A DNA stretch of 64,000 nucleotides from Octopus vulgaris. Its lineage: Eukaryota. The DNA lies in NCBI GenBank assembly GCA_951406725.2, contig OX597827.1, positions 79,422,001 through 79,486,000 of the forward strand, in the 5' to 3' direction. A program made the position numbers and the translations under genes. Under the pieces are notes generated by a model. It worked only from the letters and a program-made list of their open reading frames with translations, was not told the DNA's origin and searched no databases. Shown here piece by piece: positions 1-63,847 of the stretch; the first letter of the stretch is position 1, and every line of letters starts with the position of its first letter.

Positions 1-22
1 TCTGGTTTAGAATCATCAAACT
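1..22 (-). CDS. Probable terminal exon E3 of protocadherin gene A (partial, runs off the window)
   Basis: Minus strand reads ttttatattttacag|AG TTT GAT GAT TCT AAA CCA GA. With the phase-1 G from exon 6243-6405 this gives EFDDSKP, which aligns loosely to EYSNYRP of the paralogous E3 exons. Only 22 nt are visible. Confidence 0.5.
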
Positions 23-698
23 CTGTAAAATATAAAATAAAATAAAAAAACTTGTGCTCAAATCGTTGGATTTTAGTAAGATAAAGCATAAAAACTAACA
101 CAATTTGACAGAAATAGCATTTTTGTGTTGGCATGGAGCCTCAAAGGAGAGGTATCAGATGTTGGTTTCAGATTGTTGAATTGTTATAATGCAACTTCAA
201 AGTAATGAAGTTAGATTCTAGAACACATGTTGAAAAGTAAAAAGCATATTTTATATAAAAGAAACTCAGCCAATTCAACACACCATGGAAAAATTTATGT
301 TAAACCAGCATCAACAAATATATTGAAGAGTTCAAGCAACATTAGAAATAGAATCTAACCTATAGATTTTTAATATAAAATCATACACTGGATAGGTTTA
401 TTTTTTGCGTTTATCTTTATCTTATGGCGTCATAAATATAGTAACATCTTTTAGATACCATATGTTCCTAAACTGCCTTTCAATGAAATAGATGGATAAA
501 AAAATTAAAAATTATAATATATTCTACATAAATTTACATCTTGAATCTCTTTTCTGCCTCAGTATCAACTGTGTAGATTTACTAAATTCAAATCTGAGAT
601 TTATGAATCCAGTTAATTACCCTGAGTAAAATTAATTTAGCAAAGTCAAATTATTGCACTTGATGGGTAATGTAATCAGTGCTAGTAATTCTTTGAGT

Positions 699-780
699 TC
701 TTTCTCTCTCTCCTTCTTTCCCTCTCTCTTTCTCCCTCTTCCTCTCTCTCCCCCTCACTCCTCTCTCTTCCTCTCTCTGA
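699..780. repeat. CT-rich low-complexity tract
   Basis: Imperfect (CT)n/(CCT)n run seen directly. Confidence 0.8.
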
Positions 781-919
781 CCTTCATTTAATTAACTTGG
801 GTGCAATATTTCATCTTTACGTTAGCTACTTTTCAAATACATCTAACTACTTGCACACATGCATATTGCTGAATAAAAGTACCCTCAACTCACATTTTAC
901 ATACATGGTGTGCAAGGTA

Positions 920-2100
920 TTTGATGTAATGGTTTTAAAAGTAGTGAGTAAACAAAGGTCATGACATGCCATCACAGAACTTTCAACAAGGTCTTAGACG
1001 TGATGCTGCTGGAAATGTTAAGGTGCTAGAGACAGTTGTTATGCTCTCGATTGTTGAAACGCACAATGGAATGTCATATGTATTTCAACAAGACCGAACA
1101 CCTTCTCACAAAGCCTATATATCTCAAGAATGGATATCAGATCTCTCATGGCAGATAAAATGTTTAGCATAAAAAAATGTTGCCATATGTGCAGGAGAAC
1201 ATAGGGATTTAGAAGTTGCCAACTTTTCAGATGTTGCAAAGTTTGGATGAAATTGTAAGCTGCTAGTGTGAATGTTTTGATTGTTTCAAAGAAACAAAAA
1301 TATTCTAATGTCCACACACTACGAAACTCAATGGGTTCAGAACACTGAGTGATCCTGGAAGATCAATGAGGACCATTGGCAAGGAACTTAAGGTGTTAGA
1401 GTGGACTATCAGAACTGTGGATCATGAGGACATTTGTTACAAGTCATATACTATGGGAAGACTAATTCATGTTGGCAAAGACACAGGAAAACTGTTTGAT
1501 CCCTTCCAAGTGGTTACTTAGCAAGGTTAAAGGCCTCCATAAACATTGTATGCTTTAGTTATTCTCTAATGAGAAAAACTTTGACCAAGACCAAAAGTCA
1601 AACAGGAGAAATGACTGATGGCTATGTATAGATTCTTTTGATCCCCCCCCACCAGGGTTTCCAGTACCTGTAATGGTTTTAATAGTAGTGAGTAATGAAG
1701 GTTATATCATGTTATCACACATCTTTCCAAGGATCTTAGAATTGAAACTTAGATATGTTGAGGTGTTGGAGACAGTTGTTAAGCTCTGGATTGGTGAAAT
1801 GCACAGTGGAAGGTCATACATACTCCAACAAGACTAAACCCTTCTCACAAAACTTGTATAACCCAAGAATGGATGTCAGACAACATTTTCCTGTAACACA
1901 AACTTGAGACCTTCAAACATGCCAGATTTCAATCCTATGAATTACTACATTTGGGGCATGTTGAAAGGCAAACTAATTGACATCCTAACAATGCCATAGC
2001 TTCACTGAAGGCCACCGTTGTCCATATAATGTCCAAAATAAATAAGGGTCATTTAGCTATTCTGATCCTGCATTGAAGCAGTCATTAAAGCTGAAGCCAA
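920..2100 (+). mobile_element. Decayed Tc1/mariner-superfamily transposase relic (two related segments)
   Basis: Fragments YVFQQDRTPSH...SQEW (second catalytic D region) and PDFNPMNYYIWG (SPDLNP-like), broken by stops and frameshifts. Segment ~927-1141 recurs, diverged, at ~1670-1880. Confidence 0.7.
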
Positions 2101-60885: not shown

Positions 60886-61005
60886 ATGTATGTGAATGTG
60901 TGTGTGTGTGTGTGTACCTGTATGTGCATATCAATATATATGTATGTATATATCAATATATATATGTATGTATATGCAAATATGTATGTGTATATATATA
61001 TTTAT
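60886..61005. repeat. (TG)n/(TA)n microsatellite region (another at ~61317-61395)
   Basis: Seen directly. Confidence 0.85.
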
Positions 61006-61460
61006 ATAACTGTTATATGTAACAGAAGTTGTATCAAATTAAAATAGCCATCTATGTATCATACATTGATAATATATCATTGTAAATACATTATTGAAGG
61101 GCAATTTACTGCATCATTTTGTCAGAGATAACATCTCTTTGTCATTGATAAGGCCCAACTAGGTCAAAATGCATCAGATGTTCTCTGTAGCCACTGCTAA
61201 GATGACTTTCATCTCCTTCCAATATACATTGTGTTTTTAAACACAGCATTCCTATAAGAAATATCTCTTGGCAATTTACAGCAGTATTTGCCTTTCAATG
61301 ATGTATTTGTATTAAGTATGTATGTGTGTGCACGTGTGTGTGTATGTGTATGTGCATATATATATATATATATATATACACACACACATGTATATGATAT
61401 GCTTAAAAATGCCAGTCATTAAATTATTAGATAATAGTTCAGCAATTGCAAATTAACATG

Positions 61461-61540
61461 TTATACAGGCTCTAAATACGTTTCTTGTTCCTGTGTACAC
61501 TTTGGTGTTGGTGGTATGTTTGGTCGATAGTTGCTGTATT
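61461..61540 (-). CDS. Terminal exon E3 of protocadherin gene D (large exon not in window)
   Basis: tattttcag|AA TAC...GTA TAA; (E)YSNYRPNIPPTPKCTQEQETYLEPV*. Confidence 0.85.
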
Positions 61541-63687
61541 CTGAAAATACATAAACATGGTTTATAATTTGATGTGAAATAGATTTATGAGCACAATTTC
61601 ATTTTTCTTTATAAAAGGTACTAATATTGCAATACTATACTTTTAGAAAATAAAATAATTTATTTTTCAGTGTTACTGCTAACTAAAGTTTAGTTTGTTA
61701 TGGAAAAAATATATAACTTTACATTATAGGCATATCATTGGAGAATATTAAGGCAGCTTTTGGAATAAATGATAATAAGGTAAATGATAAAAATATGCCA
61801 TGTATAAAATGAATAATATAAGGTGGATGTTTGATGGTTAGGATAAAAAAAGTTATGAATTTGGTGCAAATAAAGTATCACTATTAATTATTCAATTCTA
61901 TTAGGGAGAGAATAGTTTTGGGGCTTTAAAATGCATACATAGATAAGTGTGTGCTAACATGCACTCACACACATGAAATCATGCAAACATTTTTGTGTTA
62001 GTCAAAAGAGGTGGGGCATATCTATGAACTTTGAAGCACCTCTCAGACTGATGAGATAAATGCAAATTATGTCCGACCTGAATGTCTTCAGATCAATATC
62101 TGTAGGGAAAATGAGTTGGAACAGGGAATCCAATGACCTTGTCTGAAAGCTTACAATATTGTTAATTTGATAAAGGTAGCTGTGTGCTAGGTAGTTATTG
62201 TTTATTTTATTGGCCTCAAATAGATGAAAGATGACTTGAACCCTAATGGAATTCAAACTCAGAAAAAAGAAGCTGGAAATTAAGTACAGTAAAGCATTTG
62301 GCACAAACTCAGTGCTTAAATAAATAATAAAAAAGCTTTGGTAAAGGGAAAACAAAAGGAAAGATTGATCTCTTTTATCTATTTTTTGGTAACTTTAGTA
62401 CAAACAGAAAATATTGAAACATGATAAATAATCACAGCTTGATTTGATTGATAAAGTTATTTAAGGTCTGCATTATTAAGGTGTACTGCTATCAGGAGAA
62501 GTGAAAGTGAAATAATTAAAATTATTTCATGAAAAGTAGGATTATAAGTGTGATTACAATGGATATTGTAAAATATTTGTTTACTCAATAAGTTTCAATA
62601 AGCTTCTGATTACCATTGACATCCAAAACAAGTTTATAATTTAAATGAGGCTCCTTTATATTGGTACAATACTACGAAATTGAACAGAGACTACAAAAGA
62701 TGAAAAATTATCAGGTATGATTAATAAATACTATTTTTAAAAATGACTGCAATATGGTGAGTAGAGAAATCAAATCTGGCTGATCCTTTTTTCATCATGA
62801 TTGTTTAATACAGCTGGTTAACTTATTTTGAACTTGTTTAAAGAAGAAACTAAAGACTGGTAGTGATTAGAAAACTGAATGTTCATAACGAGACTCTTTG
62901 TAAAGAATATTTATGCTAATTACCTCTTAACTGAGCATTTTAAATTCAACTCCTAAATAATAGTTAATTAAGCAACTTAAAGAAAATATTTCTTCCTGTT
63001 CATGAAACAACCATTAGAGCGGTTAACTCTGGCTGGCTCATACTGAAATTTGTGAAAGAATATAATAAAGGGAATATTGCTACTAGCTGAGCAGTAAGAA
63101 GTTTGCTTTCCAGTCATATGTCTCCAAGTTCAACCCCACTGTTATGCCATATTATGTAGAAAGATTGATAATATTTTTCTTAATAAGTAGTAATCTTGTT
63201 ATATTTGAGTTGGTTGTAGTTAAATAACTAAGATACTTTCTTGTCTGAATATAGTTGCAGAAATAGATAAGGTTAAATTTTCTTCATGGCTACGTAGTCT
63301 AAGTTCAACTCTATTGCACTGTACTTTGGGCAAGAGTTTTCTAATTTAGTCTTGGGTCAACTAATACATTGTGAGTAGAATTTGGTTGACAAAAAATGTG
63401 TAGTAGCCTGTCATATGTATCTGTATCTAGTGGTGCAAAACAGACTGAGATGCATCCCTTTATATTAACAGGTTAAAATAACCATTTGATAATTAGAGTC
63501 AGGCAACTATCAAACTGAATGAACTATCAAGGGTGATACTATAAACTAAAACTCTTGAAGGTAGTGCCCCAACAAGACCTTAGTTCAGTGACCAGAACCA
63601 ATAAAAGAATGAAAGAAAAAAAATATTACATTAGTTTTATCTAATAATATTTTAAAATCTTTTGAATCCTGATTCATTTTTAATTAC

Positions 63688-63847
63688 CTGATGTTCCGGA
63701 AGTTTGATGTGTAATATCTCCTTCACTCCATCCTCTGTTTCGTTCTTTTTGAGAAGGTAGTGTGTTATTCAAATTGTTTGATGTCATAATGCTATCATTA
63801 TAACATTTTTGTTCAGCTAAACTATCTGCCACATCCTTATTGTAATG
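63688..63847 (-). CDS. Cytoplasmic exon E2 of protocadherin gene D
   Basis: ttttctgacag|CAT...TCA G|GTAATT; 160 nt; HYNKDVADSLAEQKCYNDSIMTSNNLNNTLPSQKERNRGWSEGDITHQTSGTS. Confidence 0.85.

What the first reader, a model, noticed from the sequence alone, without database searches (positions are those of the whole stretch)
1..63847. Tandem protocadherin array of self-contained four-exon units with phase-compatible private tails
Seen: each large exon ends in phase 0 after LPP.P[QM], each E2 is phase 0 to 1, each E3 is phase 1, and the order L-big-E2-E3 repeats head-to-tail on one strand. Established: vertebrate alpha/gamma clustered protocadherins splice many variable exons onto one shared set of constant tail exons, and coleoid cephalopods expanded protocadherins independently. 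Here every unit carries its own paralogous tail. Inference: because phases match, any ectodomain exon could be spliced to any downstream E2 or E3, giving a different route to combinatorial isoforms. The ORF-track C-termini are intron read-through.
Basis: partly seen in the sequence, partly recalled or inferred. Interest (0 to 1): 0.72.

Follow-up and report, generated by a model that had tools for sequence, protein, structure and literature searches.

The report
Octopus protocadherin genes, each complete
This stretch holds three complete, already annotated octopus cell-adhesion (protocadherin) genes in a row, each with its own small tail exons; the RNA data we could see join each gene body only to its own tail, so the proposed mixing of tails between genes is not supported.

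Summary
The window (Octopus vulgaris, contig C14) carries three 2.4-kb protocadherin exons on the minus strand. Each is followed by a private 160-163-nt exon (phase 0 to 1) and a private terminal exon (phase 1). The tail of a fourth, upstream unit also lies in the window.

RNA-derived contigs from four studies show canonical GT-AG joints:
- 53830>50930, 50771>50428 and 33611>33337 in 4 of 4 runs
- 63688>61540 in 3 of 4 runs
- a leader-exon joint 59613>56260 in 4 of 4 runs

Joints 37444>33770 and 9334>6405 rest on public protein models that map at 99.8-100% identity.

The layout is already published: Albertin 2022 states that cephalopods make PCDH diversity by full gene duplication, not by splicing onto shared exons. 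No coding cross-unit joint appeared among the joints the tool displayed (30 of 219 rows). 53830>33770 could not be tested.

New details:
Its E2' exon is spliced into the 5'UTR of the next gene.
- Each leader exon sits in the same transcribed block as the previous gene's last exon. This fits the read-through transcripts noted by Styfhals 2022.

Ordinary overall; low interest.

The parts
63688..63847 (-). E2 tail exon (160 nt, phase 0 to 1) of the upstream unit, whose big exon lies off-window at 69687-67276
   Evidence: blastn. Translation and AG/GT flanks. Joint 63688>61540 in 3 of 4 runs. Big exon placed.
61461..61540 (-). E3 coding part (phase 1, 26 codons plus stop) of the upstream unit. RNA cover continues patchily down to the leader donor at 59613.
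   Evidence: Depth bins.
59613..60883 (-). Noncoding leader exon of unit 3 (at least 1271 nt, 30 upstream ATGs). Its donor is at 59613.
   Evidence: Joint 56257|59610 '(cut +3)' in 4 of 4 runs, and contig pieces 59610-60883. Splice-site reading. uATG count.
53830..56260 (-). Unit 3 big exon. Acceptor 56260, ATG 56238, signal peptide, six cadherin repeats, TM helix, proximal tail ending LPPVPM, donor after 53830.
   Evidence: Identical to P0004 (CAI9733463.1).
50771..50930 (-). Unit 3 E2 (160 nt)
   Evidence: Joints 53830>50930 and 50771>50428 in 4 of 4 runs. Sequence.
49897..50428 (-). Unit 3 E3: coding to the stop at 50351-50349, then 3'UTR. Contigs stop at a repeat near 49897-49901.
49070..49799 (-). 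First noncoding leader exon of unit 2, with its donor at 49070. It starts about 100 nt below the end of the unit-3 3'UTR contigs.
   Evidence: Joint 49070>45626 in 3 of 4 runs. Contigs of 1408 and 1410 nt span leader, E2' and big exon 2.
45470..45626 (-). Relic E2' (157 nt; TAA at codon 2 in the E2 frame), with no big exon of its own. It is used as the second 5'UTR exon of unit 2.
   Evidence: Joint 45470>39875 in 4 of 4 runs.
45257..45336 (-). Relic E3' (intact 26-codon frame). No RNA contig cover to speak of: bin depth 0-2.
   Evidence: Depth bins. An ortholog lies between the unit-3 and unit-2 orthologs in O. bimaculoides models.
37444..39875 (-). Unit 2 big exon. Acceptor 39875, ATG 39840, ends LPPVPQ.
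   Evidence: P0124 (CAI9733462.1) maps at 100%.
33611..33770 (-). Unit 2 E2 (160 nt)
   Evidence: Joint 33611>33337 in 4 of 4 runs. P0124 mapping.
31914..33337 (-). Unit 2 E3 (stop at 33260-33258) with its 3'UTR, running without a gap in cover into an exon 32993-31914 with a GT donor at 31914. That exon is inferred to be the leader of unit 1.
   Evidence: Contig pieces 32981-33337 and 31914-32993, the latter part of a 3998-nt contig that goes on outside the laid stretch. Donor read.
9334..11777 (-). Unit 1 big exon. ATG 11733, ends LPPIPQ. The acceptor at 11777 is predicted from the sequence only.
   Evidence: P0035 maps at 99.8%.
6243..6405 (-). Unit 1 E2 (163 nt, divergent)
   Evidence: P0035 residues 800-854 map at 100%.
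1..22 (-). First 22 nt of unit 1 E3. The rest lies beyond the window's left end.

Best explanation
The window is a piece of the Octopus vulgaris protocadherin array, made of complete genes in tandem on one strand. Each gene has one or two noncoding leader exons. One 2.4-kb exon then encodes the signal peptide, six cadherin repeats, the membrane helix and the proximal tail. Two small exons encode the gene's own distal tail.

Shown:
- the exon structure
- the within-unit splice joints
- identity to public protein models
- a private tail for 17 of 18 units in 254 kb

Inferred from the family and the literature: the proteins likely act as neuronal cell-adhesion and recognition molecules. Their diversity would come from whole-gene duplication plus gene conversion, with one gene giving one protein, and not from splicing variable exons onto shared or neighbouring tails.

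The cross-unit RNA links that do exist lie in noncoding 5' parts. A relic tail exon is spliced into the 5'UTR of unit 2. Each leader exon lies in the same transcribed block as the preceding gene's terminal exon. This likely reflects read-through transcription or promoters that abut the preceding 3'UTR.
For: Organism and models:
- P0004 (O. vulgaris CAI9733463.1, 882 aa) is 100% identical to unit 3, including the predicted E2 and E3.
- P0124 maps on unit 2 at 100%. P0035 maps on unit 1 at 99.8-100%.

Protein features:
- Five Cadherin stretches plus Cadherin_2, and no cytoplasmic family at E<=0.01.
- One hydrophobic helix at about residues 690-720.

RNA contigs from four studies:
- Five within-unit GT-AG joints in 3-4 of 4 runs.
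- Intron bins at depth 0-7 against exon contigs at depth 8-73.

Array survey:
- 18 big exons lie in 254 kb, all on the minus strand. 17 have their own E2 and E3 0.3-5.7 kb downstream. There is one orphan tail.

Gene conversion:
- Alignment columns 1401-1600 are 97-100% identical in all three units, while unit 1 is 59-75% identical to the other two over the preceding 1000 columns (401-1400).
- Unit 3 and unit 1 share a 180-nt identical run.

Literature:
- PMC9068888, section 9 (passages read): 'full gene duplications', not splicing to shared final exons.
- PMC9712504, methods (passage read): read-through transcripts caused PCDH gene fusions in the O. vulgaris annotation.

Cross-unit noncoding joints:
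- 49070>45626 in 3 of 4 runs and 45470>39875 in 4 of 4 runs.
Against: - All runs are Logan contigs of guessed RNA type. They cannot show transcript starts, ends or rare isoforms.
- 71 and 118 joint rows were not displayed.
- 37444>33770 was not among the displayed joints. Contigs break 4-15 nt above it in all four runs. This could mean a branch in the assembly graph, such as more than one upstream partner, an allele or a paralog.
- Automated models in O. bimaculoides and O. sinensis chain 5-8 units into proteins of 4355-5758 aa.
- One O. vulgaris model (P0046) puts the E2 of one unit in front of the next, truncated big exon. So some coding cross-unit joins may be real transcripts.
- The adhesion function is inferred from the family, not tested.
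Confidence: 0.88

Rival explanations
1. One reading: because the phases match, ectodomain exons are spliced to the E2 or E3 of downstream units, giving combinatorial ectodomain/tail isoforms.
For: - All E2 copies run phase 0 to 1 and all E3 copies are phase 1.
- RNA does link units: 45470>39875, and read-through is noted in PMC9712504.
- Contigs break just above the unit-2 E2 acceptor in 4 of 4 runs.
- Chained automated models exist.
Against: - No such joint is among the 30 displayed joint rows.
- The big-exon donor 53830 is joined to its own E2 in 4 of 4 runs.
- 8 of 8 mapped O. vulgaris models use the nearest E2.
- The nearest alien acceptor, relic E2', would give a stop at codon 2.
- The published statement says otherwise (PMC9068888).
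- The tails of neighbouring units are alike (about 80% at DNA level; identical at protein level in two to three units), so swapping would add little diversity.
Confidence: 0.05
2. Relay transcription: transcripts begun at one unit regularly run into the next. They are spliced from a donor in the previous unit's terminal-exon block (59613, 49070, 31914) onto the next big exon. An upstream promoter would then drive downstream units and neighbours would be co-expressed. The leaders would not be separate first exons.
For: - RNA cover is continuous or nearly so from the E3 acceptor to the leader donor in 3 of 3 cases. These are 61540-59613; 50428-49070, broken only at a repeat; and 33337-31914, where contigs overlap at 32981-32993.
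- The 'leaders' are at least 922 and 1293 nt long, with many upstream ATGs, which is odd for dedicated 5'UTRs.
- Read-through fusions are reported in print.
- A homolog of the unit-3 leader donor region lies about 1.3-1.5 kb below E3 in two other units.
Against: - Contigs across two genes do not show a single transcript (tool caveat).
- No contig piece shown spans from an E3 acceptor to a leader donor.
- The blocks are interrupted by a high-copy repeat.
- A promoter inside or just below the preceding 3'UTR explains the same cover.
- Single-cell data show some PCDH genes to be cell-type specific (PMC9712504).
Confidence: 0.25
3. The relic E2' exon is a functional regulatory exon: its 55-codon upstream ORF, which ends 9 nt before the main ATG, damps or gates translation of unit 2. 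It would then be more than a neutral leftover.
For: - E2' is included in the contigs of 4 of 4 runs.
- The upstream ORF is in the main frame and stops just before the ATG.
- The relic pair predates the split from O. bimaculoides, since the E3' ortholog appears in the chain models.
Against: - The leader already holds several other upstream ORFs.
- There is no conservation test of E2' itself.
- There are no translation data.
Confidence: 0.15

Closest known systems
Coleoid cephalopod protocadherin sub-arrays (Albertin et al. 2022, PMC9068888; O. bimaculoides chromosome 14 cluster; Styfhals et al. 2019, PMC6339937)
   Same: - Closely related multi-exonic PCDH genes, head to tail in one transcriptional direction on the PCDH-rich chromosome.
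- Diversity by full gene duplication and gene conversion.
- Orthologs at 90% identity or more in O. sinensis and O. bimaculoides.
   Different: Nothing essential: this is that system in O. vulgaris. In the passages I read I found no mention of the orphan tail used as a 5'UTR exon, or of leaders abutting the preceding terminal exon. I did not read the whole papers or their supplements.
Vertebrate clustered protocadherin alpha and gamma loci (variable first exons spliced to three shared constant exons; Chen and Maniatis 2013, as cited in PMC9068888; details recalled)
   Same: - A large single exon encodes the six cadherin repeats, TM and proximal tail.
- Tandem array on one strand.
- Homogenised membrane-proximal repeats against variable distal ones.
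   Different: - There are no shared constant exons: each unit has private E2 and E3.
- The big exon is not the first exon. It has an acceptor that receives a leader.
Vertebrate protocadherin beta cluster (self-contained genes without constant exons; recalled, not checked here)
   Same: Each unit is a complete gene with its own cytoplasmic end. NCBI names these octopus proteins 'protocadherin beta-15-like'.
   Different: Beta genes are single-exon as recalled. The octopus units have 4-5 exons. The expansion is independent (PMC6339937, section 7).
Read-through or conjoined transcripts between tandem paralogs
   Same: RNA joins material of one unit to the next big exon. Fusions from read-through are noted for this very family (PMC9712504).
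   Different: In the joints seen here, the linked material is noncoding for the downstream gene.

Membership tests
Protocadherin (cadherin superfamily) | Six or so tandem extracellular cadherin repeats | tested here: met
   PF00028 with 5 stretches (E 1e-65 to 1e-74) plus N-terminal PF08266 Cadherin_2 in all three units.
Protocadherin (cadherin superfamily) | Signal peptide and a single membrane helix after the last repeat | tested here: met
   A Kyte-Doolittle scan finds one strong segment at about residues 690-720 in P0004, P0124 and P0035. It finds an N-terminal hydrophobic segment in 2 of 3 at the threshold used. No dedicated predictor was run.
Protocadherin (cadherin superfamily) | No classical-cadherin catenin-binding cytoplasmic domain | tested here: met
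   No cytoplasmic Pfam family at E<=0.01 in the full-length P0004, P0124 and P0035.
Protocadherin (cadherin superfamily) | Ectodomain and TM encoded by one large exon | tested here: met
   Open frames of 808-815 aa, bounded by RNA-supported acceptors and donors.
Vertebrate-type variable/constant clustered Pcdh locus (alpha, gamma) | All variable exons are spliced to one shared set of constant exons at the 3' end of the cluster | tested here: not met
   17 of 18 big exons in 254 kb have their own E2 and E3. Own-tail joints appear in 3-4 of 4 runs.
Vertebrate-type variable/constant clustered Pcdh locus (alpha, gamma) | The variable exon is the first exon, with its own promoter and no 3' splice site (recalled) | tested here: not met
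   Big exons 3 and 2 receive upstream exons at acceptors 56260 and 39875.
Coleoid tandem PCDH gene sub-array | Closely related complete multi-exonic genes in one orientation on the PCDH-rich chromosome | tested here: met
   All 18 big exons are on the minus strand of C14. About 150 further family matches lie on C14. Exon structure.
Coleoid tandem PCDH gene sub-array | Homogenisation by gene conversion | tested here: met
   A patch 97-100% identical in all three units, against 59-75% for unit 1 over the preceding 1000 alignment columns. Tails are identical at protein level in two to three downstream units.
Coleoid tandem PCDH gene sub-array | Enriched expression in nervous tissue | not testable with these tools
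   The runs are coded and their tissues are not given. Contig depth cannot rank expression.

The most novel reading that the evidence does not exclude
The array is read as a relay. RNA polymerase that starts at one protocadherin gene runs on into the next. A donor in the terminal-exon block of gene n, or a relic tail exon, is spliced onto the ectodomain exon of gene n+1. Neighbouring genes would then be transcriptionally coupled. Now and then, coding chimeras (chained or tail-swapped proteins) would arise. This would be an invertebrate route to linked protocadherin choice that differs from vertebrate promoter choice.
Probability: 0.15. Interest if true: 0.5.

Novelty: already known. Interest (0 to 1): 0.2.

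Why it matters
The result mainly confirms, with independent RNA contigs, that this octopus array follows the published rule for cephalopods: one gene, one protocadherin, with diversity from whole-gene duplication and gene conversion. This contrasts with the vertebrate variable/constant splicing design and is a textbook case of convergent expansion.

The small additions bear on how transcription units are separated in such dense arrays. They also bear on why automated pipelines fuse these genes into 4000-5800-residue models:
- a relic tail exon recycled as a 5'UTR exon, with an upstream ORF
- leaders that share a transcribed block with the preceding gene's last exon

Anyone counting or quantifying octopus protocadherins from RNA data should expect this.

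Tried and rejected
- The look-up of sequencing runs: no RNA holder is listed as on record. The 17 runs with 0.31-0.39 of the words are RNA only by guess. I treated four as RNA because their contigs skip introns at GT-AG sites.
It needs 20,101 bases and the limit is 20,000. I did not try to get round this.
- A remnant big exon for the orphan tail: tblastn found none between 50340 and 45626.
- Leader exons as a conserved family: only weak, partial similarity between units.
- Rfam on 31800-50500: one match below the gathering score (SCARNA7, 30 bits against 65), taken as chance.
- Albertin 2015 is not held. Its content is cited only through other papers.
- One paper search failed on a term that was too long.
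- The search of earlier findings by place returned nothing.
- Contig depths of a unit's tail and of the next unit's leader look alike. The tool says depth cannot rank parts of genes, so I give this no weight.
- The giant chained models were considered as evidence for coding cross-unit splicing. They were rejected as proof, because they are automated predictions and some junctions lie at cryptic in-frame sites.
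Full report
**What is in the window**

The window is G000 contig C14, bases 79,422,001-79,486,000, of a 2.8-Gb genome. Three stop-to-stop frames of 808-815 codons lie on the minus strand. Their translations are protocadherin-like. Each has five Pfam Cadherin stretches plus an N-terminal Cadherin_2 match and one strong hydrophobic helix near residue 700. No cytoplasmic Pfam family was found in the full-length proteins.

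A search of the large protein collection returned an 882-residue Octopus vulgaris protein, P0004 (CAI9733463.1, 'protocadherin beta-15-like'). It is 100% identical to unit 3. P0124 (CAI9733462.1) maps on unit 2 with its own E2 and E3 at 100%. P0035 maps on unit 1 and its E2 at 99.8-100%. These genes are therefore already in a public annotation. That annotation was built from Iso-Seq, RNA-seq, protein alignments and ab initio models (PMC10700109, methods passages read).

**Check of the observation**

- The big exons end LPPIPQ, LPPVPQ and LPPVPM, followed by GT, at 9334, 37444 and 53830.
- The frames run on for 5-11 codons of intron.
- E2 copies of 160, 160, 160 and 163 nt all have AG and GT flanks and a length of 1 modulo 3. 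E3 copies are in phase 1.
- Unit 1's E3 begins at window base 22 and ends outside the window.
No cadherin remnant lies between 50340 and 45626. E2' has TAA as its second codon in the E2 frame.

**RNA evidence**

No run is on record as RNA. Seventeen runs hold 0.31-0.39 of the words of a 6-kb stretch whose exons make up about that share. I laid four of them (X1, X5, X6, X9; four studies) on 44001-64000 and on 30001-50000. Their contigs skip introns at GT-AG boundaries. Intron bins have depth 0-7, while exon contigs have depth 8-73. I therefore treat them as transcript-derived.

Among the 15 of 86 and 15 of 133 joint rows displayed, seven distinct joints are canonical:

| Joint | Runs | Kind |
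|---|---|---|
| 53830>50930 | 4 of 4 | within unit 3 |
| 50771>50428 | 4 of 4 | within unit 3 |
| 33611>33337 | 4 of 4 | within unit 2 |
| 63688>61540 | 3 of 4 | within the upstream unit |
| 59613>56260 | 4 of 4 | leader to big exon 3 (given as 59610/56257 with 'cut +3') |
| 49070>45626 | 3 of 4 | leader to relic E2' |
| 45470>39875 | 4 of 4 | relic E2' to big exon 2 |

The other displayed rows have non-canonical ends and 18-32-nt sides at high-copy repeats.

Joint 37444>33770 was not displayed. In all four runs the contig carrying E2 and E3 stops 4-15 nt above 33770. Its support is the 100% mapping of P0124.

**The cross-unit question**

No displayed joint links a big exon to another unit's E2 or E3, or links 63688 to 50428. 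In the 254-kb survey, 8 of 8 O. vulgaris protein models with tails use the nearest downstream E2. Two of these are ambiguous, because their tail peptides map at 100% in two to three neighbouring units.

Albertin et al. [quoted passage not shown] They place the O. bimaculoides cluster on chromosome 14 (PMC9068888, section 9, passages read).

The limits are real:
- Contigs drop rare forms.
- 189 joint rows were not shown.
- 53830>33770 exceeds the length that can be laid.

On its own it predicts nothing.

**What does link units**

Unit 2's messenger is leader 49799-49070, then relic E2' 45626-45470, then the big exon from 39875. Single contigs of 1408 and 1410 nt span all three pieces. The relic E3' is skipped and is essentially uncovered. 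E2' adds a 55-codon upstream ORF in the main frame that stops 9 nt before the ATG at 39840.

In three of three cases the leader lies in the same covered block as the preceding gene's terminal exon:
- 61540 to 59613
- 50428 to 49070, broken only at a repeat near 49800-49900
- 33337 to 31914, where the contigs overlap at 32981-32993, and the lower one, 3998 nt long, goes on beyond the laid stretch

The same repeat family sits in two of the blocks (joints between 49921-49929 and 33025-33029). The leaders are long, at least 922 and 1293 nt, and rich in upstream ATGs.

This fits either promoters that abut the preceding 3'UTR or read-through transcription. Contigs cannot tell these apart. Styfhals et al. 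[quoted passage not shown]

In line with that, automated models chain the orthologous units into proteins of 4355 and 5758 residues (O. bimaculoides) and 5090 residues (O. sinensis). One O. vulgaris model, P0046, has an E2-like exon of one unit in front of the next, truncated big exon, about 7 kb downstream. I take these as signs of linking RNA, not as proof of chimeric proteins.

**The wider array**

I fetched 190 kb of flanks and surveyed 254 kb.
- There are 18 big exons, all on the minus strand. Four of them are partial or frameshifted.
- 17 have their own E2 0.3-5.7 kb downstream, and their own E3 0.3-6.4 kb further on.
- There is one orphan tail, the one in this window.
- The relic E3' has an ortholog between the unit-3 and unit-2 orthologs in the O. 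bimaculoides chain models. The relic is therefore older than that species split.

**Gene conversion**

In the DNA alignment of the three big exons, columns 1401-1600 are 97-100% identical in every pair. Unit 1 is 59-75% identical to the other two over the preceding 1000 columns (401-1400). Unit 3 and unit 1 share a 180-nt identical run. This is the homogenisation already described for these clusters.

**Verdict**

The layout is already published and annotated. The combinatorial-tail inference is not supported by what could be seen. The relic-exon use and the tail-to-leader continuity are minor new details that deserve a look with long reads.

Noticed in passing
window 45257-45626 (-): Orphan tail pair E2'/E3' with no big exon. 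E2' is spliced into the 5'UTR of unit 2 and creates a 55-codon upstream ORF ending 9 nt before the main ATG. E3' is intact but skipped.
   Followed up: yes
window 54640-54840, 38250-38450 and 10145-10345 (-), approximate; alignment columns 1401-1600 of the three big exons: A patch (about EC5-EC6) that is 97-100% identical at DNA level in all three units, including unit 1, which is 59-75% identical to the other two over the preceding 1000 columns. Unit 3 and unit 1 share a 180-nt identical run. Looks like gene conversion.
   Followed up: partly
window 49877-49929 and 32975-33048: The same high-copy repeat sits at the matching place in two E3-to-leader blocks. RNA contig depth there is in the thousands, and assemblies break at it. 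Its family was not identified.
   Followed up: no
window 59613-60883 and 49070-49799 (-): Very long 5'UTR exons (5'UTRs of at least 1293 and 922 nt) with many upstream ATGs (30 in the unit-3 leader).
   Followed up: partly
L010-L013 and L017 (window-relative 194114-192617, 174622-172224, 116597-114191, -24172 to -25525): Four of the 18 big exons in the 254-kb survey are partial or frameshifted. Some of these still have protein models: P0041 ends at the break, and P0018 is truncated.
   Followed up: partly
L015-L017 (window-relative -26169 to -47391): The E2 peptide is 100% identical in two downstream units and the E3 peptide in three. RNA or peptides could therefore not assign tails to units there.
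   Followed up: no
proteins P0127, P0131, P0133 (O. bimaculoides, O. sinensis): Automated models of 4355-5758 residues chain 5-8 neighbouring protocadherin units into one 'protein'. Some links lie at in-frame sites inside big exons.
   Followed up: partly
G000 C14 79346072-79353365: The O. vulgaris model P0046 begins with an E2-like exon of one unit, spliced in frame onto the truncated big exon of the next unit about 7 kb downstream.
   Followed up: partly
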